Origin: a virus
Lineage: Duplodnaviria; Caudoviricetes
Reading direction: 5' to 3' (one strand)
Length of the DNA stretch: 64,000 nucleotides
IMG/VR virus record: IMGVR_UViG_3300020471_000006
Location: 32,001-96,000 of that record
The notes under the pieces: generated by a model
The model's input: only the letters and a program-made list of their open reading frames with translations
The model's database searches: none
Told to the model about the DNA's origin: nothing
Program-made: the position numbers and the translations under genes
Part shown: positions 1 through 40,000 of the stretch, in pieces
How the letters are laid out: each line of letters opens with the position of its first letter
How positions within the stretch are numbered: the first letter of the stretch is position 1

Positions 1-1
1 T

Positions 2-643
2 AACACAGTTGACCTCTGGGTCAACTATAAAAAAGTTCTTGATGATGTTTTCCCTGAGTTTAAATTTGATTCACGGTGGTGTGAGTGGACAGGTAAAGGT
101 GGTATGCAATTAACAGCAGACATCTTTACTGCTCCTCATTTTATAAAGTCAAGACGAGTAGATATCTACAATAAAAAATGTGATATCTATAACAATGTAA
201 TCTATCCTAAGACAGGGAGTTATCTTCCCTGTTTCGGGATGGATCTCATGGGTTTCCATGAAAAGAAAGTCATCATTGTATTTGACTTTCAACATCCAGT
301 TGAAAAGTTTTTATTTTCTTTACCTAATTTACCTAAAGCAGAAAGAGACTACAGGTTCTTTGAGATGGGCAACCATTTTTCAGAGAACATTTTTGTTAGG
401 TACTGTACCTTTGATGAAGTAGATAACTATCTACCAGAATTCAGACAGTATCTTGAGGTGTATCGTAGTATGATTGATGAAGCACTACCAACTGGTGAGG
501 ACACATCATTCTATAAAGACTTTGATATTTACATGAAGAAACTTGATCCTATCTTAGGATATATGACAGGCATCTTCGGTAAAGATAAAGCTGACAAAAT
601 GATGGATGAGTTCTTCTTCTCGTATGCTGATGAAAACAAATGA
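2..643 (+). CDS. pebS: Phycoerythrobilin synthase (ferredoxin-dependent bilin reductase), 5'-truncated by the window edge
   Basis: Frame of ORF 104..643 is open back to base 2 (NTVDLWVNYKKVLDDVFPEF...). Motifs YPKTGxxLPCFGMDLM, KVIIVFDFQHP, YRFFEMGNHFSxNIFVRYC and DFDxYMxxLDP match cyanophage PebS as I recall it. Confidence 0.92.
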   Translation, partial: NTVDLWVNYKKVLDDVFPEFKFDSRWCEWTGKGGMQLTADIFTAPHFIKSRRVDIYNKKCDIYNNVIYPKTGSYLPCFGMDLMGFHEKKVIIVFDFQHPVEKFLFSLPNLPKAERDYRFFEMGNHFSENIFVRYCTFDEVDNYLPEFRQYLEVYRSMIDEALPTGEDTSFYKDFDIYMKKLDPILGYMTGIFGKDKADKMMDEFFFSYADENK

Positions 644-19845: not shown

Positions 19846-19869
19846 ATAGTGACGTGACGCTATTATGTA

Positions 19870-20622: not shown

Positions 20623-20904
20623 TCCTCTTCTGAGGATAGGTGACGACACCTACATTCTGGACAGGGGTTCGATTCCCCTCATCTCCATTCAGGGGGATGC
20701 CACGGCTTCGACAGGGTATAAGGATCGGGACTGAAACCTGCTTGGATAAGCAAACCATATCTGCAAAAACAGATACACCTGCTGCGAATAACATCGTAGC
20801 ATTCTCACGTCCATTCAGCAAGGTTGCCAAGCGTGACCTCGTGGCTGTTTAGACCATAAGGTGAGATGGGGGTGAGGTTAGCCTTCTAACCCAAATAACC
20901 TACT
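20623..20904 (+). ncRNA. ssrA: Circularly permuted two-piece tmRNA
   Basis: T arm GGGGTTCGATTCCCC and acceptor 3' strand CATCTCC-A (20680-87) precede the 5' strand GGGGATG (20693-99) with G3.U70 pair and TTCGAC; tag frame ANNIVAFSRPFSKVAKRDLVAV* (20784-20852). Outer ends approximate. Confidence 0.88.
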
Positions 20905-20924
20905 GGGGGTGAGATACCCCCTTT
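20905..20924 (+). terminator. Intrinsic terminator after tmRNA
   Basis: GGGGGT-gagat-ACCCCC-TTT. Confidence 0.65.
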
Positions 20925-20929
20925 ATATT

Positions 20930-21475
20930 ATGCAAATATTAGATAATCTATTACCTAAAGAAGAATTTAAGAAAATTGAACATTTTCTAGTAGGTGGAGG
21001 TGGTCTTCCTTGGACTTACTTAAACTATAAAGTTTATGGACCAAATGAAGAGGATCTCGACAACTATCAGTTTGTTCATCCATTTTATTTTCAAGAATCT
21101 TGTAATGGACAATTTCAAACTGAAATATCTCCATATTTTGATTATGTCATACCTATTTTGAATAAACTTGAGTTTATTGCATTACATAGGGTGAAAGGAA
21201 ATCTAGAACCTTTAAAATCTAAAAGGTTTTATAGTGATTTTCATACTGATTGGGGTTATATGGAAGATGGCAAAAAACATGTATCTAATAATATGACAAC
21301 TGCTATCTACTATGTTAACACATGTGATGGTTATACTGAATTTGAAGACGGCACAAAAGTAAAGTGTAAGGCTAATAGGTTAGTAAAATTTCCATCTTCT
21401 ACTGAACATAGAGGTGTTAGTCAAACTAATAAACGTGTTAAATCTGTTATAAATTTAAACTTTTTTGAATTATGA
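20930..21475 (+). CDS. 2OG-Fe(II) oxygenase superfamily protein
   Basis: FHTD (HxD), TAIYYVNTCDGYTEF, EHRG, VINLNF. Confidence 0.82.
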   Translation: MQILDNLLPKEEFKKIEHFLVGGGGLPWTYLNYKVYGPNEEDLDNYQFVHPFYFQESCNGQFQTEISPYFDYVIPILNKLEFIALHRVKGNLEPLKSKRFYSDFHTDWGYMEDGKKHVSNNMTTAIYYVNTCDGYTEFEDGTKVKCKANRLVKFPSSTEHRGVSQTNKRVKSVINLNFFEL

Positions 21476-21621
21476 AACTTAAAAAGAGCGAAACCGTAAA
21501 AAAATCTTTCACAAAAAAAGACTCAAAAGGTCGTGAGGAAACATGGGAGTGGGAAGAAACTCCTGAAGTACGTAAAGCATTGGAGGTTTTACATGCCCAT
21601 AAAGGACAAACAGAAAAATAG
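21472..21621 (+). CDS. 49-aa hypothetical protein (not in ORF track)
   Basis: MKLKKSETVKKSFTKKDSKGREETWEWEETPEVRKALEVLHAHKGQTEK; ATGA overlap with the oxygenase stop. Confidence 0.55.
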   Translation: MKLKKSETVKKSFTKKDSKGREETWEWEETPEVRKALEVLHAHKGQTEK

Positions 21622-21946
21622 AGAATATCAACGTGAGTGGGCTAGAAAAAATGGTAAGACTAAAAGAGTGAACCAAAGAGGTCCAAAGAATAGGCAAAAG
21701 TTAGTTGATGATGCTAAGTCGAACCCTTGTGTCATTTGCAACATTCAGTATCCTATTCCAGTTATGGATCTGCATCATGCAGATAATAGCGAAAAGACAG
21801 TAAGTATAACTGGTCTTATTAGGACAGGTCCATATACAGATTTACAAAAAGAAGTTGATAAGTGTGTACCACTCTGTGCTAATTGTCACAGAATGGTTCA
21901 TGCTGGTCTTAGAGAGTTACCTGATTTGGTACTACTACCTTCATAG
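21593..21946 (+). CDS. HNH endonuclease with zinc-binding CxxC pairs
   Basis: CVIC...MDLHH...EVDKCVPLCANCHRMVH. Confidence 0.8.
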   Translation: MPIKDKQKNREYQREWARKNGKTKRVNQRGPKNRQKLVDDAKSNPCVICNIQYPIPVMDLHHADNSEKTVSITGLIRTGPYTDLQKEVDKCVPLCANCHRMVHAGLRELPDLVLLPS

Positions 21947-22028
21947 GGTTCAAATCTCATAATATAGTGGGTTAAAATCACATAAATGTGAATTCCTTAG
22001 AACCTAAGCGTAATCAAGGTTTTGCTTG

Positions 22029-22036
22029 TATAAATA
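22029..22036 (+). promoter_or_regulatory. T4-type late promoter
   Basis: TATAAATA 34 nt before the giant gene ATG. Confidence 0.75.
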
Positions 22037-22070
22037 AAACGAGCACAGACTAGATTCAGCTTGAGCAATT

Positions 22071-25000
22071 ATGGCATTGACAAGACTTGACAATCTTATT
22101 AGTTCTAAAACTGGTAAGTATTTGTACGTCTCACCTGACGATTTTAACGCAACGGATGAGATTAATAATAGAGGTAACTCCCCTATTAGACCGTTTAAAT
22201 CGATTCAGAGGGCATTTTTAGAGATTTCACGATTCTCTTATCAACCTGGTCCTGATAACGACAGGTTTGATCAATTCACCGTCATGGTGATGCCTGGTAA
22301 ACATTATGTTGATAATAGACCTGGTCTTGCTACTACTGACGGAATTGATGCTTTTGCGTTTGATCAAGCACTTAATCAATGGATTGATAATTCCAATTTA
22401 GACATTGGAGATCCTAATAACTGTCTGTACAAGTTTAATAACACTGAGGGTGGAGCCATAATCCCTCGTGGTTCATCTATTATTGGTTATGATTTACGTA
22501 GAACATCAGTTCATCCACTGTTTGTTCCCGATCCTGCTGACAGGTTAGAAGCTCGCTCTGCTATATTCAATGTTACTGGTGGTTGTTATTTCTGGCAGTT
22601 CACTATTAGAGATGGTGACCTAGAGCCTGCGTCACCATTATATGACAATTCAGAAGGAATTGGTAAAGTTTATTATCAAAATGGTGATTGGACTGCAAAA
22701 GCTGTACCAAACTTCTCTCACCACAAACTGACTGTTTTTGAGTATGCAGACAAAGAAGAATTAGGTCTGTACTACCAGAAAGTTGCTAAAGCATTTTCAC
22801 AATATCAACCAACAATTGATGATCCTCGTGAATTCGGTGATAGAATCGAAGAGACTAGAATTGTTGGTCCTCTATCAGACATTCGTTCTGTTGAGAGTAT
22901 TAAACTTACAGATTCAGCACCTGCTGGAACAATAACAGTTGAAGTAACATCCAAAGTTAATCATGGATACTTCAGGAACCAATTTGTTGCTATTGAGAAC
23001 AATGGTCTAGATGATCAGCTCAATGGTGTGTTCTCTATTTCTGAGATTGATTTAGTTGATCAACGTAAGTTCTCATATAATATACCAGGAACTGTTGGTG
23101 CTCTTGGAACTAGTGCATCTTTGATAAGTGGCACAACTTATACTGCATCAAATGGTTTAGATTCTAATGCTGTAGTTAAGGCAGAGGTTGACTCTGTTGA
23201 ATCTGCATCTCCATACGTCTTTAACTGCTCCATCCGTTCAACATGGGGTATTTGTGGTATCTGGGCAAATGGTTTGAAAACCACTGGTTTCAAATCAATG
23301 GTTATCGCTCAGTATACTGGTGTATCTCTACAGAAAGACGATAGAGCATTCATCAGATATGATGAGTACAGTAACACATTTAATCAAGCATCACTATCAG
23401 ATGCATTTGCTACTGTTCCATATCATACTAAAGGTGATGCATACTGGAAGGATGACTGGAGAAACTTCCACGTTCGTGCATCAGAAGACGCATTCATTCA
23501 GTGTGTTAGTATCTTCGCTGTTGGTTTCGCTGATCACTTCCTAATGGAAAGTGGTGGTGATATGAGTATCACCAACTCTAACAGTAACTTTGGTAATACA
23601 TCACTACATGCTATTGGTCATAAAGGATTTGCCTTTACACAGGATAAAGGTGGATATATTACAGATATTGTTCCTCCACAGGTTGTAGATACAACTACTG
23701 GAAATATCAAGAAGAATGCTTACTATACTATTGATATTCCAGCTACCAAAAATCTTAACAGTGCATCAGACCAGACTAAGATCTATCTTGGAGACGATGA
23801 AGCATTTAATCCAGAGACACGTGTTGCTGCATCTATTGATGGATTCCGTATAGGTGCTAGGTCAGATGAAAAGTTATATGTAAAATTAATTCCTAGATCT
23901 GCTGGAAGTAGTAATATTTTCGAGGCAACATTATCTCCTAATGGATTTAAGAAGTTTAATGCTACTGCAACTATTCTTAATCCTACTGGTATTACAATTA
24001 ACAATAAGGATCTAGATGCTGCTGACCTTATTGAAGCAAACAAAGAGTTTATTGCTTACGAGGCATACGGATATATTACTAATAAGTATCCATACCTCTT
24101 AGATAGAGAAGGTATTGATATTGTCAAGTGTCGTCGTGACATTGGATATTTGCTTGATGCTACTATTCAGGATTTAAGACTTGGTGGTAACATTAATACT
24201 ATTCAAGCTGGTGAATCATACTATGTTGGTAATAACTTATCATACATTACATCAGAACTTACTGAAACTCTAGAAGGTTACGACTACGCTAGAGATCTTG
24301 CTATTGCATCTATACGTAATTTCACATATCTACGTACTGGATCAGAGACAACTGCTGGATCTGCTATTGTTGATGTCGGTGACACAAGTGGTATCGTTCA
24401 AGGTATGACTGTTGCTGACTATGATCCTACTCAGTTTACAGACAACAAACTTAATTCTGGTGCTTCACGTCCTGCATCTCCAGTTATTCCTGATAACACA
24501 TATGTTAAGAGTGTTATCTCATCAACAGAGATTGAACTTGGACAGAAAGCAACATTCTCTAGTAAGAAGGTAATCTCTGATCGTAATGGTGACGCTAGAA
24601 ACCTATTACTTTCAAACAAACTATTCATTGCTGCTGAAGCATTTGATAGGATGGTATTGGATTTCCCATCTTATACTTCACCAACAGGATACGGTCCACA
24701 GGATTGTAGGGATGACTTAGTTGACATCGTTGAAGCAATTGCTGAGAATACTGCTTATGGTGGTAACGATGAAGTATGGGATGCTGCATATCATTATGAT
24801 AGTGGTGCAGTTCAGTATATTTCACAGAAGAAAGAAGAGACCATTCGTGCGATTGAATATGCCAGAGATATGTCTGTGCAGATCATGCGTAATGAGAAGT
24901 CATTCATCTTTGGTAGTCATGGTCTAACTCAAACATATGATAATACTGTCACTTATGAACCACCTGAAGTGGTTAATGACAGAAATGGTGACGCACGTAA

Positions 25001-28000
25001 TCTAATACTTGCTAACAAGCATTTGATTGCTGCTGAATCTGTAGAGAGAATGTTGGTTCGTTCTTCTACTGCTGAGTATACACCAACTGATGCTGAGTAT
25101 GATCCAGCAACAGGTGATTTGACTCTTGATGTTCAGAGTCATGGATTAACTGCTGCTAGTGCTATTACAGCTTCAGATGCAAATTATAATCCTGAAACTG
25201 GTTGGTTGACTATTACATCTAATGGTCATGGTTTAGCTGCTGGTAGTAAGGTTAAGATTGAAGATGAATCATTGACATTGACATGTTCAATGGATGGTGA
25301 TGCTTCTACTCATGTATATCCTAGACCATCTGATCCTATTAGTAATAAGTGGGTTGAAGTTGCTGAGGCAGACACAAATACATTCAGTATTGATGTAGGT
25401 AAGTCTCTATTAATTGGACATAATGTAACTGCTGCTGAATATGTTCCTGCTACTGGATTGTTAACTGCAACTATTCCAGGTCACCAGTTAAGTGAAGGGC
25501 AGAATGTAAGAGTTGAAGACGGAGCATTTACATTTACATGTGCTCAAGATAACTATGGCACACAACATGTTTATCCACGTTCAACTGATCCAGCATATCA
25601 AAGTTCTGTTAAGATTGTAGCAGATGGTTCCAAGCACACAGTTACTGGTGCTGGATACAACCCTGATAAGGGTACTATGGAATTCACCCTTACAAATCAT
25701 GGATTTAGTAATGGTGATAAGATAAGAATTGATGATAATGCATTAGTCTTTACTTGTGCAATGGATGCTAATGCTACTGAGCATTCATATCCACGTAAGT
25801 CTGACCCTATTAGTGGTAAGTGGGTTACTATTACAAACAAAACTAACAATACTTTTGAAGCACATGTTGGAACTACTGGTGCGGTAACATATGATCTTAC
25901 TAACGCACTTTATGATCCTGCAAGTGGTGAGTTAACAGTTAGTGTTGATGGAAACCATGACATTGATGTTGGTGAGAATATTAGATTTGCTGATAATGCA
26001 TTAACATTTACATGTGGTATGGATGGAAATAGTTCTAACCACACATATCCTCGTACAACTGACCCTGCGTATAATACTGGGTTAGAAGTTATAGGTGTTG
26101 GTGGTAACTATGATATTTCTAATGCTAACTACAACCCATCTACAGGTGTACTTGAGTTCACTGTTGCTAATCATGGATTGACAAATGGAGAACTCATTAA
26201 GATTGCCAACAACTCTCTAACATTCACATGTGGCATGGATAATAATGCTTCCGAGCATAAGTATCCACGTGCAACTGATCCTTATTCTGGTGATTGGTTA
26301 TCTGTCTATGATGTAGCACAGAATTCATTTAAAGTTCAGATTGCAGATGCTGGATCTAACGTAGAGTTTACACCAACTGATGCTTCTTATGACCCTGCAA
26401 CTGGTGACTTAGAACTTACTGTTGGTGCTCATAATCTATCTGTTGGTGATGGAATCGTCATGGATGACGGTGCTGTATCCTTCACTTGCACAATGGACAA
26501 CAACCAAGTTGCTCAGTCATATCCACGTGCAAACTTAGATAAAGCTTCTGGAAGATCTCTTCCAATTACCTCAGTTGATACAGGTAAGTTTACAATTAAT
26601 GTAGGTGCTGCTGGTTCTAATAAGAACTTAACTCCTACTGGTGCAACATACAATCAGAACAATGGTGAGATGGTTCTTACTGTTGGTCAGCATGGATTGC
26701 GTGTTGGTACTGATATTACATTAAAAGATAACTCATTAACATTCACTTGTGATAAAGATGGTGGTGCTACTCAGCATTCATATCCTAGACCTGGTACTGA
26801 CCCTTATGCTGGTAAGTCAATTGCTATTACAGCAGTTGGTTCTTCACAACATACAGCAACTAATGTTGCATACACACCTTCTAGTGGTGTTATGGTTGTT
26901 ACTGTTCCTAGTCATGGATTCTCACCAGGAGATTACATTCAGGTAGCAGATAATTCTATTACATTAACATGTGATTTAGATGGTAACGTAAGTCAGAAGA
27001 CATATCCACGTACTAACTTTGATTCACTAAGCAACAGGTGGGTTCCTATCCTATCAGCAAGCACTGATACCTTTACTATTAATGTTGGTTCTTCTACTGA
27101 TAATTCAGTACACACATTTGTATCTGCTTCTGCTAATGGTATCTTAAAGCAAGACGGAACACTAACAATTAATGTTGGTTTCGATGCTGATCCTGCTAAC
27201 AGATATGCTCACACATTTGTATCTGCTCTTACCGATGCTGTAGAATATAAGCCTCAGTCAGCACATACATTCGTATCTGCATTAACAAATTCAGTTAAGC
27301 ATCTACCACAGTCTGCTCATACATTTAAGAGAGCAGCTAACTATGCTATCTCCAAGAGAGGTGGTGACATCACAGTTAATGTTGGTAAGTCTCCTATTGT
27401 AGAGTTCACACCAACTAATGCTACCTATGATCCTAACACAGGATTGATGGAATTAACTATAGGTAGTCACAGTTTAACTGCTGGCACAAGTGTTAAGGTT
27501 GATCCTAATTCTCTCAAGTTTACTTGTGAGATGGATGGAAACTATAGTGTCAAGTCTTATCCTCGTGCTACTGACCCTGTAAATGATACTTCTATTGAAA
27601 TTACAGCAGCGTCAGCTACAACTATTACTATTAATGTTGGTCAATCTCCAATAGTAAGTCACAATGTTGATGATGGTTCATACAACCCTGCAACAGGTGA
27701 GATGACCTTGAAGATTGGAAACCATAGTCTAACTGTTGGTGAGTCAATCAAGATTGCTGATGGTGGTGTAACATTCAGTTGTACTTATGGTAATGTTCCA
27801 CATACCTTTATAACTGGTGCTGCTGGTGGTATTACTGCTGATGGTAGCACAGCATTGACAGCAGCTTCTGGAACAACATACGATCCTATCACAGGTGAAT
27901 TGGTTCTTGAAGTTGGAGCACATGCTTTGAATGCTGCTTCTACACATACAGTAACAGACGCAACATATAATGCTGCAACTGGTGCTATGGTTGTTACCAT

Positions 28001-31000
28001 TGCTAATCATGGATTTAGTAATGGTGATAGAGTTAAATTTGCTGAGGGTTCCATATCACTTAACTGTGCTATGGATGGTAATGTTTCTACTAAGACATAC
28101 CCACGCAGATCTGATCCTACATTCGGTAAGTGGTTACAAATCTCTAATGTAACTCAAGATTCATTCTCAGTTGATGTTGGTTCATCTCCATTAATACAGC
28201 ATACACCTACAGGTGCAAATTATAATCCTACCACTGGTATAATGGAACTTACCATTGGTGCTCATAGTTTGACTGTTGGTACTGCTGTTAAGATTGCAGA
28301 TAACTCTCTAACATTCACTTGTGCTGAAGATAATCATCAAACAACACACACTTATCCTCGTGCAACTGATCCATTCTCTGATAAATCATTTGCTATTACT
28401 GATGTAACTGCTACAACAATTAGTGTTCAGGTATTAAGTACAATCCCATCTACTAATGTTACAGCACACTTATTTGTTTCTGCAACTGCTGACTGTGTTA
28501 CATCTGGTGGAAACTATGCACATACATTTGTTTCTGCAACTGCTAGTGGTCTTAAGAAAGCAAATAGTACAATCACATTTGATCAGGATGCATTAACATT
28601 CACTTGTAATGCTGATAACAACGCTACACAACACACATATCCTCGTGCTGGTGATCCATTCCGTAATGAAACACTAGGTTTAGATTCTGTCACTGGTACA
28701 ACAATGACAGTATTCGTTGGATTCTCTACTGGTAGTCAGAGTGCTAAATCTTATCCTAGATCTGCTACTGAAACACATACAGCTACTGCTGGTACAACAT
28801 ATGATCCAACTACAGGTATATTGAGTGTAACAACTGCTGCTCATAATATCAAGAATGGTGATTATGTTCAGTTTGCTACTGGTGCATTTACCTTCACATG
28901 TATGGAGGATAATAACAGCACCAACCACACATATCCTCGTGTAACTGATCCAGTAAGTAGTAAGTGGTTGAAGGTTTCTAATGTAACTTCAACTACATTT
29001 GAAGTACAAGTATTGGATGTTATTCCTTCTACTAACGTTACTGCTCATACATTCATAACTGGAAGCAACAACGGTATTACTTCTAAGGTTGACAGATCAT
29101 ATGATCAGGCAATAGAAATCACTGGTGTTACTGCTGATACTATTACAGTTAATGTTGGACCTTCAAGCAAGACTACAGACGTACATACTTTCGTATCTGC
29201 ACTAGCAGGTGCTGTTAAGTCTGGTGGTGGATATGTTCATACATTTAAGTCTGCTGATGCAGGTGCTCTTAAGACAGGTGGTAACTATCTACATCAATTT
29301 GTATCTGCTACTAGCGGTGCTTTAATTTCTGGTGGTAACTACGCACATACATTTGTAAGTGCTGTTGCTAATGGATTAACAAGATACGATGGAACAGTAA
29401 CTTTGGATGTTGGTACATCTTCTAACACTACTGCACATCAATTTGTATCTGCTATACCTAATGCAATTACTACTGGTGGAAACTATGCACATACATTCAT
29501 ATCTTCTAATCCAAATGGTATTAAGAAGGCTAATGATCGTATAAGAATTGATTATGGTGCATTGAACTTTACTTGTGACATGGATGGTCACAACAGTCAA
29601 CATGCATATCCACGTATTAGTGACCCTGCATATCAGGAAGATCTACCAGTTCTAGCAGCATCTACTAATCAGTTTACTGTTAATATTGGTACTACAGGTC
29701 AAGGTAATCTTGATGTAAGTGATGCAACTTACAATCCTTCTACTGGTGACATGACAGTCACAGTTGGATCACATGATTTGGAACCAGGTCAAGACGTTAA
29801 GATCATTGGTAACTCTATCAAGTTCTCATGTAATGCAGATAACAATGCTACAGACCATGCTTATCCTAGACCTACTGATCCTGCTGGAACATCATCTCTA
29901 CCTGTTAAGTCAGTTGGTTCTTCTTATCATAGTTCAACAGATGCTTCATACAATCCTTCCACTGGTGATCTAGTTCTTACTGTTGCTAATCATGGATTCA
30001 CTAATGGTGATAGAATTAAAATTGCTGATGGATCACTCACATTTACATGTGATATGGATAACCATGCAACTGAGCATGCATATCCAAGACTTAAGGATCC
30101 TAGCAATGGTAAGTGGTTAGTAATTTCTGATGCAACAACAAATACTTTCAAAGTTAATGTTGGTCAGGCTGGTGCTTCTCAAACATACACACCTACTGCT
30201 GCCACATACACAGCTGCAACTGGTCAGTTAGTATTAACTATTCCTAATCATAACATTCCTGTTGGTAAGAATATTACTATAGCACAGGATTCATTGAAGT
30301 TCCGTTGTGCAATGGGTGGTACTTCTGACATTAAGACTTACCCTCGTTCTAGTGATCCTATCTACTCAACAGGTACAGTAGTTACTGCTGCTGATGCTAC
30401 AACAGTTACAGTTAATGTTGGTGCTTCACCTTTAGTCAGTCACACTCCAACGGATGCATCTTTTGATCCTGCAAATGGTTTGATGACATTGACCATTGGT
30501 TCTCATAACCTAACTGTTGGTGAGTCTGTTAAGATTGCTGATGCTGGAGTTACATTCACATGTGGTCAGGATAATAATGCCACAAACCATGCATATCCTA
30601 GAACAACAATTGAAAGTCATACAGCAACCATGGCTGCCTATGATCCTGATACTGGTATCATTACAGTTACTGTTGCTGGTCACGGAATGCGTGATGGTGA
30701 TTGGGTTAAGTTAGCAGATGATTCTCTAACATTTACATGTGCTCAAGATGCTCATGCTACTAACCACACATACCCAAGAGCATCTGATCCTATCAGTAAC
30801 AAGTGGGTTAAGATTTCTAATACACAGACAAATACATTTGATATTCAAGTATTAGATTCTGCACCTTCAACCAACACTACAGATCATACATTTGTATCTG
30901 CTGTCGCTGGTGGTATTACTCAGAAGAAAGATAAGTCTTATGATTCACCTGTAGATATTACAGCTGTAACAGCAACAACAATTACTCTTGATGTTGGTAA

Positions 31001-34000
31001 GTCTTCTAACACTACTGTTCATGCATTTGTCTCTGCAACTGCTGACGCTATAACCAGTGGTGGTAACTATGGTCATACATTTGTTTCTGCTAATTATGGT
31101 GCTGTAACTGCTGACATAACTGAGAATCTATTTACACCAACAGGAGCAAATTATGATCCTGCAACTGGAGATCTTACTCTAACAATTGGTAGTCATTCTC
31201 TTGCAGTTGGTGATGGTATTACTATTGATGATAACTCACTGACATTCAAGTGTCAGATGGATGAAGAGCAGTCCAATAAACTTTATCCACGTCCAGCATC
31301 TAAAGGTCTTACTGCAACTACTGGTACAACATATAATCCTACAACAGGTATTGTTTCTATTACAACAACTGCTAATCATGGATTAAAAACTGGTGACTTT
31401 GTTAAGATCGCTGATGGTGCTCTAACATTCAGTTGTGGATTTAATGGAGCAACAGGTACTGCTGCTGAGAAATCATATCCACGTCCTAGTGATCCTGTAA
31501 GTGGTACATGGATTAAGGTAACAGAGACAGGTGTTGATTCATTTGAGTTCCAATGTCTTGAAGCTCTACCTTCTACTAACACAGACACACATGCATTTGT
31601 AAGTGGTGTTGCTGATGGAATCACACGTCAGACTGCTACTGATAGAGTATCTGGAAGATCTGTAGATATTATCGCTAGAACTGCAAATACAATTACAGTT
31701 AATGTTGGTGGAGCTGGAGATAACCAGACATGGACACCTTCTGCTGCTGATTATAACTCAACTACTGGTGATCTTATTCTTACAATTGGTCAGCATGGTC
31801 TTCGTGAAGGTGCAGGTATTGTTCTTAAGGATAATTCACTAACCTTTACATGTTCTAAGGATAATCATACTTCTAACCATAGTTACCCACGTCCTGGAAT
31901 AGATCCATATGCAGGTGATAAATCAATCACTGTTAATAGTGTTGGTGCATCTATGCATAGTGTTAGTGGTGCAGAATATACTCCTGAGACAGGTGTTCTT
32001 AAACTAACAGTTAACAATCATGGATTCTCTAATGGTGATTACATCAAGTTAGATGATGAATCTCTAACTCTGACATGTGACCTTGATGGAAACGTAAGTC
32101 AGAAAAAATATCCACGGGCAGGATTTGACCCTGTAAGTTCAAGGTGGTTGAAGATTGCTGATAAGACTACCAATACATTTGAAGTCAATGTAGGAATCTC
32201 TTCTGATAAGTCAGTACATTCATTTGTATCTGCTGTTGCCAATGGATTACACAGACAGAATGGAACCATCACAGTTAACATTGGTGCTTCACCATTAAGT
32301 AACTACACACCTACTGCTGCATCTTATAATGCAGTCACTGGTGATATGGTTCTTACTATTGGAGTACATGATCTACAAAATGGTGAGAAGATTAAGATAG
32401 CACCTGATTCATTAACATTCCAGTGTGCTAAAGATGCTAATGCAACTAACCACACATATCCTAGAGTTACTGATCCAGCATACAATAGTGATCTAGAAAT
32501 TAAGGATGCTACAACTACAACAATCACAGTTAATGTTGGTGCAGCTGCTGCTAATGATCAGTATGATCATACCTTTGTTAATGCAACTGCTAATGCTATC
32601 ATCTACAACCAGAGATATACACATACATTTGTAAATTCTGTTGCTAATGCTGTTCATTTCGAACCAGCATCACCACATACATTTGTAAGTGCTATTGCTA
32701 ATTCAATCAAACATTATCCTACTGCTAATCATACATTTGTAAGATCAGTTGCTGGTAATATTCAGAAAGAAACTGGAACATTTACAGTTAATGTAGGTGT
32801 TGCTACTCTATCTAATCAGTATCCACACCAATTTAAGAGTGCGTCTGCTGGTGCTATTCAAACTGGTGGTGCATACTTCCATAAGTTTGTTAGTGCAGTA
32901 AACAATTCCATACACAAAGTATTTACAGTTGCTGGTAATCAACAGTATCATAATCAAGATTGTATTGATGATGTTGTTGATCTACTTGAAGCAGTTGCTG
33001 ATAACATTGCTTATGGTGGTAATGATAAGACATGGGATGCAGCATACTCATACAAGACTGGTGCTCATGTAGCTGGTGAAGAAGATGAAACCAATTATGT
33101 ATTTGAGCAAGCACGTGAAATGGCTGCTCAAGCACTTAGAAACCAGAAGATTCTTGTTACTGGACATCATGGTCTTCCACAGGTATTTGATAAGAGTATT
33201 ACATTCAATGAGGCTGATCCTCCAACAGATAGATTTGGTGATGCTCGTAACTTAGTTGTTGCTAACAAACTACTCATTGCTGATGAAGCATACGAGAGAA
33301 TGTTGGTACAACATCCTGGATTTGTTCCTCCAACAGGTAACCAACAGGATTGTAAGGATGACATCGTAGACTTCGTTGAAGAAGTTTCATATAACCTAGC
33401 ATATGGTGGTAACGATAGAGTTTGGGAGATGACCGATCTCTATGTACAGGGTATGGTTCAAGAGGTTGCTGGAGAAGAAACACAAACTATCCAAGCACTT
33501 AATCATGCACGTGATTTGATGATTCAAATCGCTAGGAATGAGAACATTGTAACACTTGGTTCTCATGGACGTACACAGGTTAGGGACACTACTATTACTG
33601 GTAGCGTTGCTCCTCATGTAAGTAACAGACATGCTGATGCTAAGAATCTAATCTTGGCTAACGTTGAGTTTGCAGCAGAGGTAGCATTGGGTAGAATGAT
33701 TGCTCAGTTCCCTTCATATTCATGGCAAGCTGGTTACAGTTCTGCTGATTGTTTAGATGATCTTAAAGATGTAGTTAAAGTTGTTGCACATAACACAGGT
33801 TATGGTGGTAACCATAGAGTATGGGATGCTGCTAACCTTTATGTTGCAGGTGCTCATGCTGCTGGATCTGAGAGTGAAACTATCTTTGCATTCAATGCAG
33901 TACGTGACATCATCAAAGAGATTGCTACTAACGTAGAAGTTACTGTTGGTGGTCACACATCATTAACTCAGACAAGAGATCTTACCATTACTAATGGTGT

Positions 34001-37000
34001 TACTAATGGAGATTGTAATGTTGTATTGAGTGCTATTGATACTTTAGTTGCTATCTTAACTGGCACAATATCTGATCCAACATCACTACAAGGTATAACA
34101 CGTACAGATTCTGTTGGTCCTTGTGAGGACATGAGATCTGCTGTTGGTGTTCTTACTAAGATTGTAACTGATGCTATTTCAGATCCTAGTACACTATCTG
34201 GTAAGAAGCATACAGTAACTACATCAACTTATGATCCTGCAACTGGTTGGTTAACACTTGATATTGGTAATCATAGTTATACAAATGGAACCAGTGTACA
34301 CATCGTTGATAACTCACTAACATTTACATGTGAGAGAGATAACAACGCAACAAATCATACTTATCCACGTTCAACCGACCCAGCTTCAAACAATGATCCT
34401 ACCATTACTGGCACTACTGCTACCACAATCACGGTTAATGTTGGTGTATCATCTGATACGTCAGTTCATACCTTCGTCAGTGCATCAGAGAAAATCGTAG
34501 TTGGTGGAGTTACAAGAACTCCTTCAGTTGGATCATGTGAAGATGTAAGATCAACACTTAATTCACTATTCAAGATTGTTATTGATACAGTTGAAACACC
34601 AACATCTCTTGATGGTGTAACAAGAACCATTTCTAATGGTGCTTGTCAACAGGTTGCATCTACAATCACAACTCTCTACCAGATAATCACTGGAACTATC
34701 AACTCTGCTTCTTATCTTGACAGTGTTGAAAGGAACCCTGTTCCTCTTGGTCTAGAGTTTGGTCCTTCTATTAATGCTAACGCAACTAGCACTAACTCTT
34801 ACTTACACTTTGAGTTTGCTGATGCAGTATACACAGCTCTTACTAGAACAGTTGACAATACTATCACACAGAATACAACGTATCCTCAGTGTGTTGATCA
34901 AGCAAATGCTATTCGTCAATACTTCGCTAATATTAGCACAATTATCCAAACTGGATTGGGTAGTGTGCCACGTCAACAACCATCACAGTTAACTACATCA
35001 TTATCATCTAGAGCAACAGTCTTTACATTGACACAAGGAGCTGGTGCTAACCCACATGATCTTGAGACAGGTACACCAATTAGATTGGTTCCACGTCCAC
35101 GTTATGATACACAAACCAATTCTTATGTTGATGTTGATAAGCGTTTCGTTAGACTTCCTAATGGATTTGCTACGAACGAAACATATTATGTAATTGCTCC
35201 TGCAAGGAATACACAACCAGAAAATTATTCTGCTAATGCTGTATTCAATGGAAGTGATCAAACTAAATTAATGCTTGCAAGCAGCAAAGAGAATGCTGCT
35301 GCTGGTATCTACCTACACTCTGCTGAAGTAGAAGATATACATCCAGACATAGAGATTGATCTATATCAATTTGTTCTTGATGATAACTATGATCTACATC
35401 AATATGGTTGTGTACTTGATGGTGTAAGTAATACAAACATCCGTACAGATGTTCCACACATCTTTGATGTTCCATTCTCTAACATTACTGGACATACAGT
35501 ATTCTTTAGAGAAAGAGAAGGTGGTGCTTTACCTCTAGTTGGTGCAGCATATGCTAGTGATACTACTGTTGCAGATAGTCAAGGTAGACTACTAGGTAAC
35601 AGGTACTTCTTTGCTAGGTATCAAACAGAGAAAGTCTTTACTATCCATAAGACTAAGAGTGATGCAGAGCAAGGTGTTAACCCAATAACATATCAACCAG
35701 GTACTTACGACTTTAACGTATTTGCTAACAAGCGTCAGTCTCCAATGAGATTTGATCCAGCGTTTGTTAATCCTAATACTAACCCAGTAATATATGGTAA
35801 GTGGTACTTACAGGTTGAGAATAGCAACAATACAGATCAAATCATCAAGAGACTTAGAGAGTATGCTGATGGTATTGATAAGACAAATGATTCTTGGTTC
35901 GAGAGAATTAAGGATGAGAGACCTGCTAACGATAGACTATATCGTTTACGTTATGTTATACCTCAGTACTTACAATCTGTTCGTGATCCACTTAACGGAT
36001 TTACTATTAAGACAAGGACTGATGAAACTAGAAGAATAGTACCTCAGAAGATAAGTCTTAAGCCTGTCTCTGGTGGTACAACTAAGGCACGTTTCTCTAA
36101 CCCAGTACAATCTAATGAGTACATTGGATATACTAAGCAAGAGTTCATTTCTAATAGTCTTAATGAAGAGATTGCATACGATCCATACAAGAAGGATGTC
36201 GTAGGTAATACACAGTTTAAGAAAGTTATTACAACACAGAACTATATCTCTATGACTATTCAGTCTGGTAGATATGTTCAGACTGGTGGATTAACTGACT
36301 ACTTAGAACTAACTGTGTTTGAACATGGTGTTACTAATCCTGCATTACTTAACACTAAGTTTAATACTATTAAGATTACTGCACCTCAAGGTGGATCATT
36401 CACTGCTAACAAGACACAATCTGTAGAAGGTAACAAGGTCGAGTGGGCTGGTAATTCTAGTGGTTATGGTTATCTACATGCCATCATGAATGTACCTGGT
36501 ACTACTACATGGCACATGATCCTTAAGGATGTTGTTGGTAAGATTGACTATGATGCTATTGACAACACAAGGTTCAGTCAGGGTACAGCATTCGCTGATC
36601 TACTTGCTGATGCTGACATGGGTAAGTCATTGGTACTTAAGGATCTTATTAAGAAAGAATATCCTGAATTCTATTACAGACAGAATGGTGCTGGTGTTTA
36701 TACTATCACACCAGGTGATATTATTGAAGACGACGCAAGTATCCAATACTATGTTGAGTCAGTAGAAGATGTTGGTCAGATTGATGACACATTCTATGTC
36801 TTCAATACACAAGAGATTCAGAAACGTATCTATGGTCAGCAAGATGGTATCTATTATCTAACTGCTGTTCGTGGTAACATTTCACCACTACCTCAAGGTG
36901 CTGGTAACTTAGGTAACTTCAGGAACTTTAAGTTCTCCCAGCCTATCTCCTCACTATATCCATTAAACTATAAGAACGATCCTCTCTGGTATCAGCAGTT

Positions 37001-40000
37001 GGATGCAACATTAGTTGATCCACCTCAGACATACTCTGCTGCTGATAACTATGTTCATGGTCTTGTAAGAGTTAATGACTTCAAGGGTTCACTAACTCAA
37101 GAGAGTGTCATTGATCTAATTAAGAACAATGCATTCGGAGACAATACTTATACACAAGTATCTTCTGTAGTTGATAATAGAATCAGAGCACAGAAGGGTA
37201 ACGCTGCTTCTGGATCTGAAGATAGATTAATTCCTATCGCTGGTGATAGTACAGTCGTAGCAGATCAACGATACTATGTTGAACTTCGAAGACCATCTAT
37301 CGCAAGAGCTGGTAACCACACGTTTGAATATCTTGGTTTTGGTCCAGGTAACTACTCAACTGGTCTACCTCAACGTCAAGAGGTTGTACTCACAGAGATA
37401 CAAGACTTCTATGCTCAGTCTAAGAAGCAAGATGGTGGTTTAGTATTCTACACTGGTCTTAACTCAAATGGTGACCTATACATTGGTAACCGTAAGATTG
37501 ATGCTATTACTGGTGAGGAAGTATTCCTTGAGTCTGCAACATTACAAGATTCTGGTGATGATGACGAGACACTAGGTAATCTAGTTACAACGTTTGATAC
37601 TCCTGTTACATTTAATGAGTACATCACTGTTAATGGTGGTGAGGCTCAGGATAAGAGAAGTACATTTAACTCACCAGTTCTAATTAATGTTCTTGGAACT
37701 GTTAGAAACAATCCTGCGTTGGTAATTTCTTCCTTCGTTGATCCTGCTATTGATGATGGTTCTCTTGATAGATCAGCATTCGTCAGAAATGTCGAAACTG
37801 GTGGTGATGTTGTCATTGCTAGGAATAAAATTTCCGCAGCAATTTTCCAGTTCAATAGTCGCAGAGATGGTCAGGGATACAAGATTCTGACACATATTAC
37901 AGGTGCTACACCTTCTAACATTACTCCTGATCAAACTGGTGCATTTAATGCAAGTCAGATTGTTTCTTATGGTAATGCAGGTGCTCCTGATTCTGGTGAC
38001 ATGCTCCTTAAGGGTGGAAGTATTGGTAAGTCTGGATCACTTGGTTGGATCTATTCAAACTACTACACTACAATTGGTAATGCTGTTCCTGAATCCCTTG
38101 CATTTAATAACACTAACGTTATTACACTTACATGGGCTACATTAACAAACCAGCAACTTGGTATTACATCAGCTTCTGAACTTAGATTCAGTGGATTCTC
38201 CGATCCTGACTTTAATGGTACATGGCAAGTTATATCCAATGGATTTAATCCTGCTGCTAATACATTACAGTTTGCTATCGGTGCAACTAAAAACACTGTT
38301 AATAATCAGAACCCAAGAATGTGGTCTGATGAAGTTGCAGCTAATGCTAATATCACAATTGAATACTCCAATTCCAACTGGAAAGAGTGGGGTGTTATTG
38401 GTGCTGAAGCAATTAGAACAGAGACTGATGCTATTGGTGATTACAAACTTGGTATTAACACAGTTGGTAGATCAGATAAAGCATCTTACAGTGAAAACTT
38501 TGTTGATGCTAAGACAAACCCACGTGCAAACCTTGATGTTGTTGGTACTGCATTCATTAGTGGTAAGAAAATCACTGACTATGCATCACATGCAACTGAT
38601 GCTACTAGAACATATCAAGATCGTACTGATGCATTCATGGTTGGTGGAGATTCTTCCTCACCAACAGATGAGTCAACCTTCAGAGTTTCTACCGCTAACG
38701 GTGGACGTGTTGGTGTTAATGTAACTGATGCTGAATTAGATAGATCATTAGTTGTTGATGGTGAGTCTAGGTTCACTGGTGATGCTAGGTTCGAAGAAGA
38801 TATTGAAATCAATGGTGGTGGTGGAGCTAATACTGCACAGATTAGAACATCTATTACTACAGGTAAGGTACAATTCTTCCCTAATGCTGGTGGAACTCCG
38901 TTCACTGGTGAAGTAGAGATTGCACCACTTGGTACTAGTATTAAGATTGCAGATGCAACTCCATCTGATCAGTTTATCAAGATAGGTAACTTCTCATTCC
39001 ATAGTAATATTGACATTGGTTTCACACCTACAATGTCTACCAATATCTCTAAGGTGCAGATAGGTGGTGCTTATGAGAATAACGAATCATTATCATATAC
39101 ACTTATAGGTACTAAGTCATTCAAGACTAAGGGAGACTTCCAGTTAGGTACAGTTAGAGGACTACTTGACACTGTTAAGTTGACATCTACTGCTGGAACT
39201 GTTGAGTTCTTTGCTGGTAACTCTGCTACATCTAAACTTGACTTTGCTACCAATGCTTCTGAGATCACAATCGCTGGTAAAGGTGGTAAGACTACAGTTA
39301 GAAACAACCTAGTAGTTGATTCTACTGCTAGATTTAACTCTGACATCACACTTTGTGGTGGATTTGCATCTTACTCATTCACAGCATACAGAGCACAGCA
39401 AGGATCTACTGCATTCGCTCATGCTAGTGGAGATCTAGGTAACAATATCTTCAACAGTAATGTTGATTTGATTGAAGTTAAGAGACTCGTTAATACTGAT
39501 GAGAACTACAACGCAATTGATACAGCTGGTACTGGTGATTGGGGTGGATCTGTATTCCAGAATCCAATTACACAGATTGCTGGAACTGTTGAACCTCTAA
39601 CTCTAACAGGTTTGAGTGGTGATCAATATTACTTACCACTTAAGAATCGTCCATACGATTCTAATGGTACTCAGTATATTAATGAGCAAGATATATTACT
39701 CATTGATACTGATGATTCAGGTGGTACTAAGCATCCAGAATTTGTTAAAGTTATTTCTCTTCCAAGAATTAACGTTGCACCTTACTGGATCGTAGTTGAA
39801 AGACTACCATTTGGTACATTCACTGCTACTAGATCTGATCATCCAGATACTACTGCTATCTACAAGTGTACAGTACAGTATAATGCTACTTGGACTACTA
39901 CAACTATAGATGATGCAGGTACTGAGGACAATGTATACCTAGCACAGTTCGGTGGTAATATTGAACTTGGTGATTATATAATCATTGATCGTAAAGATAC

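What the first reader, a model, noticed from the sequence alone, without database searches (positions are those of the whole stretch)
25040..34520. Russian-doll architecture of the 6618-aa protein: domains inserted inside domains
Seen: the helical repeat normally runs ERM-(short loop)-DC..D.VD (FPSYTSPTGYGPQDC, HPGFVPPTGNQQDC, FPSYSWQAGYSSADC). In one copy that loop holds the whole ~7.9-kb array (ERMLVRSS at ~25070 to NQQYHNQDC at ~32940). Within the array many units lack their closing HTFVSA strand, which then appears in runs of 4-6 (~27110-27350, ~29180-29520, ~32560-32920), like matched parentheses. Complete units are also inserted right after YPR (YPRTTIE[unit]KDKSY, YPRPASK[unit]TATDRVSG, YPRSATE[unit]VDRSY), and one sits in a small helical repeat at ~34200-34500. 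Inference: an out-and-back or branched, tree-like fibre built by recursive insertion.
Basis: partly seen in the sequence, partly recalled or inferred. Interest (0 to 1): 0.7.

Follow-up and report, generated by a model that had tools for sequence, protein, structure and literature searches.

The report
Self-nested barrel tree in phage fibre
A 6,618-residue tail-fibre-type protein of a marine T4-like cyanophage carries 25 copies of one small beta-barrel domain inserted inside one another up to ten deep, deeper than any domain-in-domain nesting I found described, and probably forms a branched side arm for contacting the host cell.

Summary
Residues 1001-3617 of the giant ORF (nt 25071-32921) consist of 25 units of about 105 aa. 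Five motif types (A, b, y, c, H) each occur exactly 25 times. Together they parse without error as one properly nested tree: maximum depth 10, 7 tips, 6 forks, five insertion loops and one circularly permuted unit. No shuffle out of 200,000 parsed. After de-nesting, every unit is 102-109 aa long. Removing the array restores the 133-aa period of the helical host repeat.

AlphaFold2 models of a 2-unit module (pLDDT 92.8) and a 6-unit subtree (pLDDT 81.9) were compared with solved beta-barrels. The matches place single barrels on the discontinuous ranges that the parse predicts. The runs of the HTFVSA motif therefore close earlier barrels and do not form a separate solenoid.

Orthologues carry 0, 2, 8, about 10 or 25 units. 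The array is under purifying selection.

The principle is already known from the Si3 insertion of cyanobacterial RNA polymerase, which nests six levels deep. This scan has also noted the same build on other cyanophage DNA, with 5-15 units up to 7 deep; this copy is the largest. No experimental structure exists, and the function (reach or adhesion) is inferred.

The parts
22071..41927 (+). Giant ORF of 6618 aa. It belongs to the T4-like cyanophage family annotated 'short tail fiber protein' (phrog_4527).
   Evidence: ORF and translation; phrog_4527 with E = 0 over the N-terminal, middle and C-terminal parts; syntenic orthologues of 4057-4759 aa.
24573..25070 (+). Helical repeat copy 1 (aa 835-967) and the N-terminal part of copy 2 (aa 968-1000, ending ...ERMLVRSS). 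This is the host of the array.
   Evidence: repeat motifs at aa 840 and 973, spacing 133.
25071..32921 (+). Array of 25 self-nested beta-barrel units (aa 1001-3617): depth 10, 7 tips, 6 forks.
   Evidence: parse and shuffles; units tile 2617 of 2621 aa; own length 102-109 aa; the 26 de-nested units align end to end.
32922..34025 (+). C-terminal part of helical repeat copy 2 (from ...NQQYHNQDC) followed by copies 3 and 4.
   Evidence: spacings 133, 2750 and 132; 2750 - 2617 = 133.
25071..25157 (+). Root unit 1, first hairpin only (element A). Its B-C1-C2 part lies at nt 29532-29702 and its closing strand at nt 32868-32921.
   Evidence: aa 1000-1031 match unit-HMM positions 3-34 only, and aa 2487-2542 match positions 31-86 only..
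29532..29702 (+). Root unit 1, middle part (B, C1, C2). It comes 1458 aa after its own first hairpin.
27111..27359 (+). First run of closing strands: H9, C2 of unit 8, H8, H7, H6.
29184..29531 (+). Second run of closing strands: H11, H10, H5, H4, C2 of unit 3, H3, H2.
32568..32921 (+). Third run of closing strands: H25, H23, H21, H17, C2 of unit 16, H16, H1.
27798..27938 (+). Circularly permuted unit 12, first piece (closing-type strand followed by the A hairpin). It is inserted in the B loop of unit 11, between ...TFSC and ...YPR.
   Evidence: L017 has the same kind of insert in the orthologue of unit 9; barrel templates align to model range 133..444 against the predicted 136-182 + 391-445.
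28563..28727 (+). Circularly permuted unit 12, second piece (B, C1, C2).
   Evidence: (unit-HMM positions 33-89 only).
26619..27263 (+). Two-unit module 8(9), aa 1517-1731, folded with AlphaFold2.
   Evidence: pLDDT 92.8, pTM 0.84; barrel templates align to 75..178 (inner unit) or to 1..212/215 with 68-88 residues (outer, split unit); the parent's beta6 and beta7 continue into and out of the child as 11-residue strands.
27393..29291 (+). Subtree of unit 10 (units 10-15), aa 1775-2407, folded with AlphaFold2.
   Evidence: pLDDT 81.9, pTM 0.50; five of six predicted units recovered at the predicted ranges.
26103..27359 (+). Nested block 6(7(8(9))), paralogous to 17(21(23(24))) at nt 29922-32771.
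   Evidence: best pairs u6-u17 0.53, u7-u21 0.55, u8-u23 0.57 and u9-u24 0.58, against a mean identity of 0.40.
34203..34508 (+). Isolated complete unit (aa 4045-4146) inserted in a small helical repeat.
   Evidence: (unit-HMM positions 4-105, 138.6 bits).

Best explanation
Architecture
- The array is a tree of 25 homologous beta-barrel domains of about 105 aa each.
- Each domain has nine predicted strands: beta1-2 = A (Y.P.TG...H.L), beta3-4 = b (...LTFTC), beta5 = y (H/K.YPR), beta6 = C1 (DP...W..I), beta7 = C2 (TF.V.VG), beta8 = H (HTFVSA), plus a short beta9.
- Apart from the root, each domain is inserted into a loop of another copy.
- Five loops serve as insertion sites: A^B (2 cases), inside B (1 case, a circular permutant), B^C1 (3), C1^C2 (5) and C2^H (13).
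- The root barrel is itself inserted into the ERM...QDC loop of a 133-aa helical repeat in the body of the fibre protein.

Path of the chain
- The chain runs outwards, leaving each barrel unfinished.
- It completes a tip barrel, then returns and adds the missing strand(s) to each open barrel in last-opened, first-closed order.
- This produces the runs of HTFVSA strands with an 18-aa period.

Inferred consequences
- Folding must proceed from the tips back to the root. The first hairpin of the root waits about 1,460 aa for its next piece and about 2,600 aa for its last strand.
- The product is a branched projection with 7 tips, its longest path 10 barrels, anchored at one point on the helical rod.
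- My best guess (about 50%) is that it extends reach and multiplies weak cell-surface or glycan contacts during adsorption.
- The array grew by duplicating contiguous subtrees and inserting them into loops.

Status of the steps
- Shown by sequence: the grammar, the constant unit length, the restored host period, whole-unit presence or absence between orthologues, and purifying selection.
- Shown only by prediction: the barrel fold and the closure of barrels by distal strands.
- Inferred: folding order, overall shape and function.

The confidence given is for the nested architecture, not for the function.
For: Sequence grammar
- 125 tokens (25 of each of five types) parse as 25 nested units with depth 10. 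0 of 200,000 full shuffles parse, and 0 of 200,000 shuffles of the delayed tokens parse.
- local matches to a unit HMM built only from contiguous units are partial in exactly the predicted way. Examples: aa 1000-1031 = positions 3-34; 2487-2542 = 31-86; 2953-2996 = 61-106.
- each unit's own length is 102-109 aa (sd 2.05) although spans run from 103 to 2617 aa. The units tile 2617 of 2621 aa.
- the 26 de-nested units align end to end. Y, G, H, G, C, YPR, D and H.F are invariant or nearly so.
- the host repeat period of 133 aa is restored once the 2617 aa are removed.

Structure prediction
- the module 8(9) model has pLDDT 92.8 and pTM 0.84. The best barrel templates align to model residues 75..178, the inner unit: 4p22_B (Z 8.5, rmsd 2.4, 76 aligned) and 4hiz_A (Z 8.2, rmsd 2.2, 81 aligned).
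- Other single-barrel templates align 68-88 residues over the range 1..212/215, which is the split outer unit. Examples: 1ep3_B (Z 6.7, rmsd 3.7, 85 aligned) and 1hze_A (Z 5.8, rmsd 2.8, 72 aligned).
- the 633-aa subtree model has pLDDT 81.9. Barrel templates (67-86 aligned residues) fall on 1..633, 181..390, 265..372, 455..570 and 133..444. The parse predicts 3-87+612-629, 183-267+373-390, 268-372, 461-565 and 136-182+391-445.
- at a C1^C2 insertion the parent's beta6 and beta7 continue as 11-residue strands into and out of the child.
- ESMFold2 complex of the outbound halves of units 6-7 with their two return strands gave a verdict of weak support. Score 0.47, best control 0.01.
  - That mark was reached by 58 of 80 solved complexes and 2 of 110 mismatched pairs. 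At 0.60 or under it was reached by only 7 of those 80 solved complexes and by both mismatches that passed.
  - The runs agree in at least 88% of contacts, and the partner's pLDDT is at least 72.

Relatives
- orthologues differ by whole units inside a host unit. L014, L015, L018 and L036 have an extra unit at A^B of the unit-9 orthologue. L017 has a permuted unit inside its B loop.
- L002-L006 keep the same 25-unit topology. L007 has 8 units in the same host loop and L036 about 10.
- dN/dS is 0.15-0.25 against five independent metagenomic contigs, with no indels over 1700 aa.
Against: - There is no experimental structure, and the tools gave no model coordinates. Closure of split barrels is therefore inferred from the first and last aligned residue plus the aligned length, not from a contact map.
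- Z scores of 5-8.5 are in the range the tool calls 'middling'.
- Unit 11, which is split three ways, was not among the 50 rows listed for the large model. Parts of that model have pLDDT of 60-70, and its pTM is 0.50.
- The regular expressions for the tokens were written after reading the sequence. The shuffle test is therefore conditional on them, although an HMM tokeniser reproduced 124 of the 125 tokens.
- The grammar alone cannot tell which H strand in a run closes which barrel. The nested order rests on the short linkers of about 12 aa and on the models.
- The complex test gave only weak support.
- Nothing tested here bears on function, oligomeric state or position in the virion.
Confidence: 0.85

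Rival explanations
1. Beads plus solenoid. Each unit folds from contiguous sequence as an incomplete but stable domain, and the runs of HTFVSA strands form their own beta-solenoid or beta-spiral segments.
For: The closing strands come in regular runs with an 18-aa period, which looks like a solenoid repeat. Phage fibres often contain beta-helices (general knowledge).
Against: - The counts of openers and closers are exactly equal (25 each). Orphan C2 strands and B-only pieces interrupt the runs exactly where the stack predicts them.
- De-nested units have a constant length.
- In both models, single-barrel templates span ranges that include the distal strands.
- In the complex test the pLDDT of the outbound halves rose from 55-60 with unrelated partners to 79-81 with the return strands (weak support: 0.47 against a best control of 0.01).
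Confidence: 0.04
2. Inter-chain completion. The protein is a trimer, like most phage fibres, and the returning strands close barrels of a neighbouring chain rather than of their own. The grammar would be the same, but the object would be an intertwined rod rather than a tree of monomeric barrels.
For: The N-terminal 645 aa match tail-fibre families (phrog_529), and many tail fibres are trimers (general knowledge). No oligomer model was run.
Against: - Monomer models are confident without partner chains (pLDDT 92.8).
- The barrel templates that match are monomeric domains.
- At a C1^C2 insertion the parent hairpin simply extends into the child, which is an intrachain arrangement.
- The array hangs from a single loop of a helical repeat, so three copies would not be forced to lie side by side.
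Confidence: 0.08
3. Assembly artefact or decaying repeat. The nested order would be a product of mis-assembled repeats or of scrambled, non-functional duplications.
For: Repeat-rich regions are prone to mis-assembly (general knowledge).
Against: - The frame is open over 19.9 kb.
- Five contigs from different metagenomes share the same token order and are collinear without indels over 1700 aa, with dN/dS of 0.15-0.25.
- Paralogous units are only about 40-58% identical. That is too diverged to mislead an assembler.
Confidence: 0.01

Closest known systems
Si3 insertion of the cyanobacterial RNA polymerase beta' subunit (RpoC2), made of recursively nested sandwich-barrel hybrid motifs (SBHM)
   Same: One small beta domain is used as both host and insert, repeatedly, so that several copies are discontinuous and are closed by distal segments. 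The whole set hangs from one loop of another domain (the trigger loop) and forms an elongated arm. Crystal and cryo-EM structures show 8 SBHMs, 4 of them discontinuous (PMC10895346). A 2026 survey of 2.7 million domains highlights it as a six-level nested architecture (PMC13114784).
   Different: The array here has 25 units and depth 10 within itself, against 8-10 domains and six levels. Its span is 2617 aa against about 645 aa. The fold is different: the matches are to E1-FCCH / endosialidase-type barrels, and no SBHM or RNA polymerase row appeared. It also includes a circular permutant, sits in a virion fibre protein rather than an enzyme, and has no experimental structure.
Split domains of RTX adhesins (for example AhLap and MpIBP) that project ligand-binding domains
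   Same: This is a giant fibrillar surface protein in which a domain of the rod is split so that another domain emerges sideways from it. The emerging domains are the ligand binders (PMC12077191).
   Different: In the adhesins the nesting is one level deep and host and insert are different folds. There is no self-recursion and no tree.
E1 FCCH domain (PF16190) and the endosialidase beta-barrel (PF12195)
   Same: These are the best structural matches of a single unit: 4p22_B (Z 8.5, rmsd 2.4, 76 aligned) and 4hiz_A (Z 8.2, rmsd 2.2, 81 aligned). Atlas neighbours are viral proteins carrying these Pfam families. From memory, both are themselves domains inserted into a larger host domain, and the endosialidase barrel binds sialic acid.
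   Different: Sequence membership is not met: the Pfam E1_FCCH scores of 17.6-26.4 bits fall below the 29.5-bit cut-off. No catalytic or ubiquitin context is present. The glycan-binding analogy is untested.
Receptor-binding tip of the phage T4 long tail fibre (gp37). Recalled from memory (Bartual et al. 2010) and not checked here.
   Same: The chain runs out to a tip and back, so N- and C-terminal segments lie side by side. Histidines line the returning strands.
   Different: gp37 is an intertwined trimeric needle with iron-coordinating HxH motifs. It is not a set of monomeric barrels, and it shows no recursion or branching.

Membership tests
phrog_4527 ('short tail fiber protein' of T4-like cyanophages) | Significant full-length match to the family profile | tested here: met
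   E = 0 for aa 1-1000 and aa 4400-5500; E of 1e-104 to 1e-117 for the other parts.
phrog_4527 ('short tail fiber protein' of T4-like cyanophages) | Conserved position after the baseplate hub genes and before the tail-collar and structural genes | tested here: met
   same gene order in ACG-2014i, S-WAM2, S-RSM4 and S-CAM4.
T4 gp12-type short tail fibre | Sequence or fold homology to gp12, and a trimeric receptor-binding tip | not tested
   No Pfam gp12 family was hit. The name comes from database annotation only, and neither the oligomeric state nor the tip was examined.
Recursively nested domain-insertion architecture (Si3 type) | The same domain family acts as both host and insert over several levels | tested here: met
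   25 homologous units, 24 insertion events, depth 10.
Recursively nested domain-insertion architecture (Si3 type) | Discontinuous domains are physically completed by distal segments | tested here: met
   Met in predicted models only; single-barrel templates span the predicted split ranges; weak support, 0.47 against a best control of 0.01. There is no experimental structure.
Recursively nested domain-insertion architecture (Si3 type) | Units are SBHM / hybrid-motif domains homologous to those of RNA polymerase | tested here: inconclusive
   No RNA polymerase or SBHM chain appears among the 50 listed rows. A family that is not listed is not thereby excluded.
E1_FCCH (PF16190) / End_beta_barrel (PF12195) beta-barrel | Pfam profile match above the gathering score | tested here: not met
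   PF16190 scores 17.6 and 26.4 bits against a cut-off of 29.5. PF12195 was not reported.
E1_FCCH (PF16190) / End_beta_barrel (PF12195) beta-barrel | Same barrel fold | tested here: met
   4p22_B (Z 8.5, rmsd 2.4, 76 aligned) and 4hiz_A (Z 8.2, rmsd 2.2, 81 aligned). One search gives the same templates at Z 8.5 and 8.2. These are the top rows, but the Z values lie at the edge of the tool's 'middling' range.
Beta-solenoid formed by the HTFVSA repeats | Consecutive 18-aa repeats stack on each other as an independent fold | tested here: not met
   the distal strands fall inside ranges matched by single barrels; the runs are interrupted by C2 and B pieces at the positions the stack predicts.

The most novel reading that the evidence does not exclude
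This would be the deepest and largest natural self-nested domain tree so far described: 25 barrels and ten levels, or eleven counting the helical host. It would fold hierarchically from its seven tips back to a single root as the returning strands emerge from the ribosome. On the virion it would form a dendritic, multivalent receptor-binding 'bush'. The invariant triad of His (A hairpin), Cys (LTFTC) and His (HTFVSA) would act as a metal or hydrogen-bond clasp that locks each returning strand into its barrel. Unit number (0, 2, 8, about 10 or 25 among orthologues) would be an evolvable dial for reach and avidity.
Probability: 0.35. Interest if true: 0.88.

Novelty: new variant of a known kind. 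Interest (0 to 1): 0.8.

Why it matters
- Beyond the record: recursive domain insertion is regarded as rare and shallow. A 2026 survey of 2.7 million classified domains presents six levels, in cyanobacterial RNA polymerase Si3, as its showcase of complexity (PMC13114784). A 25-domain, ten-deep, forked tree in a phage virion protein goes well beyond that.
- A folding problem: barrels left open for up to about 2,600 residues of translation must neither aggregate nor mispair with 24 homologous neighbours.
- A design rule: a small barrel with adjacent termini and five permissive loops can be composed into rigid branched scaffolds.
- Phage biology: the build explains why these cyanophage 'short tail fiber' genes vary by kilobases between close relatives. 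It also identifies a likely host-contact organ in viruses that control marine Synechococcus.
- Annotation: linear domain parsers and repeat finders will mis-describe proteins of this kind.

Tried and rejected
- Pfam on six slices of the protein gave only sub-threshold hits (E1_FCCH, Phycobilisome, Cthe_2159).
- Foldseek against the PDB found no match at E <= 0.001.
- A profile search of the unit against PDB sequences found nothing credible. The best hit was an iota-carbonic anhydrase at E = 0.006 with repeats of 3-9 bits.
- A first tokeniser built from contiguous (leaf) units only missed many short C1, C2 and H tokens, so I replaced it.
- A first regular expression labelled the C2 strand FEFQC as a B strand and the parse failed. 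The sub-HMM scores settled that ambiguity.
- My first manual parse left an unexplained 38-aa piece with a second YPR in unit 12. Comparison with L017 showed that unit 12 is a circular permutant inserted in the B loop of unit 11, which removed the anomaly.
- Automatic parsing of distant relatives mostly failed because their tokens have diverged from my HMMs. Only L007, L016, L025, L036, L041 and L049 parsed within 2 edits or fewer, with 0 of 100 shuffles doing so. I therefore make no family-wide claim about depth.
- I considered a Mantel-type test of outbound halves against closing strands to prove which H strand closes which barrel. I dropped it because block duplication preserves strand order under both nested and crossed assignments.
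- The idea of a metal site formed by His, Cys and His could not be tested without coordinates. The position two residues before YPR is H in 16 units, K in 8 and Q in 1, so it is not a conserved ligand.
- Literature searches for nested or recursive insertion in phage fibres or cyanophage fibres found no description.
- No oligomer model was run.

Full report
**Context.** The window comes from a T4-like cyanomyovirus (Kyanoviridae). The best DNA matches are Synechococcus phages ACG-2014i, S-CAM4, S-WAM2 and S-RSM4. The neighbouring genes are baseplate hub, tail tube cap, tail lysozyme, short tail fibre, tail collar and a fibre-assembly chaperone.

The ORF at 22071..41927 (+) encodes 6618 aa. It matches phrog_4527 'short tail fiber protein' along its whole non-array length. 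Syntenic orthologues are much shorter: 4057 aa (S-CAM4), 4102 aa (ACG-2014i), 4482 aa (S-RSM4) and 4759 aa (S-WAM2).

**The observation.**
- A helical repeat occurs four times, at aa 840, 973, 3723 and 3855.
- The spacings are 133, 2750 and 132 aa. Subtracting the 2617-aa array gives 133 again.
- The array is therefore a clean insertion into the ERM...QDC loop of copy 2.
- HTFVSA-type strands occur in runs of 4, 6 and 6.
- Three complete units sit directly after a YPR motif.
- One further complete unit (aa 4045-4146) interrupts a small helical repeat.

**A typed grammar.** I read a complete unit as five elements:
- A: Y.P.TG...H.L
- b: ...LTFTC
- y: H/K.YPR
- c: TF.V.VG
- H: HTFVSA

Each element occurs exactly 25 times in aa 990-3625. 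I wrote a stack parser that requires each unit to receive its elements in the order A, b, y, c, H. The parser allows a new unit to open between any two elements. It also allows one permuted form (H, A, b, y, c) between b and y.

The parser consumes all 125 tokens and returns 25 units with a maximum depth of 10. None of 200,000 full shuffles parsed. None of 200,000 shuffles restricted to the 23 delayed tokens parsed either.

The tree is 1(2(3(4(5(6(7(8(9))),10(11(12cp(13(14)),15)))))),16(17(18(19(20)),21(22,23(24,25))))). It has 7 tips and 6 forks. The 24 insertions use five sites: A^B (2), inside B (1), B^C1 (3), C1^C2 (5) and C2^H (13).

The tokens were defined after reading the sequence. Two independent checks nevertheless agree with them:
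- A unit HMM built only from contiguous units gives partial local matches of exactly the predicted kinds. For example, aa 1000-1031 match positions 3-34 only, aa 2487-2542 match 31-86 only, and aa 2953-2996 match 61-106 only.
- An HMM tokeniser reproduces 124 of 125 tokens. It finds no token elsewhere in the 6618 aa except in the isolated unit.

**Quantitative consequences.** I assigned each residue to the deepest unit that spans it.
- Every unit then owns 102-109 aa (mean 104.7, sd 2.05), although spans run from 103 to 2617 aa.
- The 25 units tile 2617 of 2621 residues, so no linker is left over.
- The 26 de-nested units, with the permuted one rotated, align end to end at a mean identity of 40%.
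- Y, G, H, G, C, YPR, D and H.F are invariant or nearly so.

**The odd piece.** A 38-aa segment with a second YPR (aa 2193-2230) at first did not fit. A relative, L017, has inserted H-A-b-y-c material between ...TLSC and ...YPR in the orthologue of unit 9. Read the same way, unit 12 here is a circular permutant sitting in the B loop of unit 11, and the parse closes. A permutant that works is what one expects of a domain whose two ends are adjacent, and adjacent ends are also the precondition for serving as an insert.

**Fold.** I made two AlphaFold2 models.

*Model 1.* AlphaFold2 on module 8(9) (aa 1517-1731), with 20 natural sequences of the same topology, gave pLDDT 92.8 and pTM 0.84.
- Foldseek found no PDB match at E <= 0.001.
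- The exhaustive aligner found beta-barrel domains:
  - E1 FCCH, 4p22_B: Z 8.5, rmsd 2.4, 76 aligned.
  - Phage phi92 endosialidase barrel, 4hiz_A: Z 8.2, rmsd 2.2, 81 aligned.
  - A phage FCWL1 head-to-tail protein, 9jlf_E: Z 7.3, rmsd 2.5, 80 aligned.
  - Riboflavin-synthase / FNR-type barrels.
- The rows fall into two classes. One class aligns to model residues 75..178, the contiguous inner unit.
- The other class aligns only 68-88 residues over the range 1..212/215. That can only be a barrel built from the two ends of the module, which is the split outer unit.
- DSSP shows that the parent's beta6 (aa 1584-1594) and beta7 (aa 1691-1701) run on as 11-residue strands into and out of the child. 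They form a two-stranded stalk.

*Model 2.* A second model of the subtree of unit 10 (aa 1775-2407) used 29 sequences and gave pLDDT 81.9 and pTM 0.50. It was compared with solved chains in the same way. Single-barrel templates (67-86 aligned residues) fall on these ranges:

| Observed model range | Unit | Range predicted by the parse |
|---|---|---|
| 1..633 | 10 | 3-87 + 612-629 |
| 181..390 | 13 | 183-267 + 373-390 |
| 265..372 | 14 | 268-372 |
| 455..570 | 15 | 461-565 |
| 133..444 | 12 (permuted) | 136-182 + 391-445 |

Five of the six predicted units, including the permutant, are recovered at their predicted boundaries. Unit 11, which is split three ways, is not among the 50 listed rows.

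I had no coordinates. These statements therefore rest on the first and last aligned residue plus the aligned length.

*Complex test.* I tested the outbound halves of units 6-7 against their two return strands (36 aa). The verdict was weak support:
- The score was 0.47, against a best control of 0.01.
- That mark was reached by 58 of 80 solved complexes and by 2 of 110 mismatched pairs.
- At 0.60 or under it was reached by only 7 of those 80, and by both mismatches that passed.
- The runs agree in at least 88% of contacts, and the partner's pLDDT is at least 72.

**Which strand closes which barrel.** The grammar cannot distinguish nested from crossed pairing within a run of H strands. Successive H strands are separated by only about 12 residues. 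After a tip barrel the chain can therefore reach only the adjacent barrel, and that argument together with the models favours the nested order.

**Relatives and evolution.**
- Five metagenomic contigs (L002-L006) carry the same topology. They are collinear without indels over aa 1001-2700, with dN/dS of 0.15-0.25. The array is therefore neither an assembly artefact nor decaying sequence.
- L007 has 8 units in the same host loop and parses once one weak H strand (HQFST) is counted. L036 has about 10.
- S-CAM4 and ACG-2014i have just two nested units, in a different loop of the helical repeat. No unit was detected in S-RSM4.
- Orthologues of unit 9 differ by a whole extra unit at A^B (L014, L015, L018, L036) or by a permuted unit inside B (L017).
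- Within this protein the best pairs are u6-u17, u7-u21, u8-u23 and u9-u24 (53-58% identity). The contiguous subtree 6(7(8(9))) was therefore duplicated as a block and later decorated.
- A profile of the unit finds 723 representatives (E <= 0.001) among 1.84 billion proteins, many of them with 5-30 matched stretches. In a tblastn search the phage hits were all cyanophages.
- Nested modules are common in these proteins. One protein of 4764 aa has six tandem copies of a four-unit nest.
- This scan has already reported the same build on other cyanophage DNA, with 5-15 units up to 7 deep. The present copy is the largest noted.

**Comparison with what is known.** The closest described system is the Si3 insertion of cyanobacterial RNA polymerase.
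- Si3 has eight sandwich-barrel hybrid motifs, four of them discontinuous, solved by crystallography and cryo-EM (PMC10895346).
- A 2026 survey of 2.7 million domains describes it as a six-level nested architecture and presents it as that survey's example of extreme complexity (PMC13114784).
- RTX adhesins use one-level 'split domains' to project ligand-binding domains (PMC12077191).

The principle is therefore known. What is new here is the scale (25 units, ten levels, 2617 aa), the fold, the permutant, the use of five loops and the setting in a virion fibre. I found no paper describing this in phage fibres.

**Function.** Nothing here tests function directly.
- The protein family is annotated as tail fibre and lies among baseplate and fibre genes.
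- In S-PM2d, 'short tail fiber' ORFs and a very large neighbouring ORF acquire mutations during co-evolution with the host (PMC9910659). I did not verify orthology.
- The nearest folds include the endosialidase barrel, which as I recall binds sialic acid.

On that basis I put about 50% on a role in reach and multivalent cell-surface binding. The alternative is a purely structural spacer.

Noticed in passing
window 24000-24155 and 33250-33545 (aa 644-695 and aa 3727-3825 of the giant protein): The 133-aa helical repeat that hosts the array gives weak, sub-threshold Pfam hits to Phycobilisome protein (PF00502; E 0.0073 and 0.0017; 16.7 and 18.8 bits against a cut-off of 22.2). Here the four copies are tandem, not nested.
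   Followed up: partly
L084 (S-CAM4) CDS 18328-30501, aa ~1261-1464; L001 (ACG-2014i) CDS 18862-31170, aa ~1261-1461: These orthologues carry only two nested units (token string AbycAbycHH). The units lie in a different loop of the helical repeat, after the GGN.K.YD... helix rather than in the ERM...QDC loop. The barrels therefore entered the helical scaffold at least twice independently.
   Followed up: partly
P0002 (4764 aa, from the search of protein representatives): This protein carries six tandem copies of a four-unit nested module (token pattern AbcAycAyAbycHcHH, six times). Nested modules can therefore also be arrayed in tandem. No context or taxonomy is available for it.
   Followed up: no
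window 49416-50291 (+): This 291-aa ORF matches tail (fibre) assembly chaperone families (phrog_4697, E 4e-33, and phrog_4912). It is a candidate helper for folding the giant nested protein, but that is untested.
   Followed up: no
giant protein, position two residues before each YPR (25 units): This position alternates between H (16 units), K (8) and Q (1). By contrast, the His of the A hairpin, the Cys of LTFTC and the His of HTFVSA are invariant in all 26 units. The invariant triad may form a clasp or a metal site. This could not be checked without coordinates.
   Followed up: partly
L011:2746-3264 and L013:2746-3264: In these relatives the orthologue of unit 6 has SNPQ in place of the otherwise invariant YPR, and its closing strand reads H.FRR. 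This may be a compensated variant of the barrel core.
   Followed up: no
window 14782-17622 (+) and 44942-49390 (+): The C-terminus of the gp5-like hub/lysozyme protein and the N-terminus of the 1482-aa structural protein share a short module with giant virion proteins (phrog_701, phrog_460 and phrog_708 hits). It is unrelated to the barrel unit, which occurs only in the giant ORF in this window.
   Followed up: no
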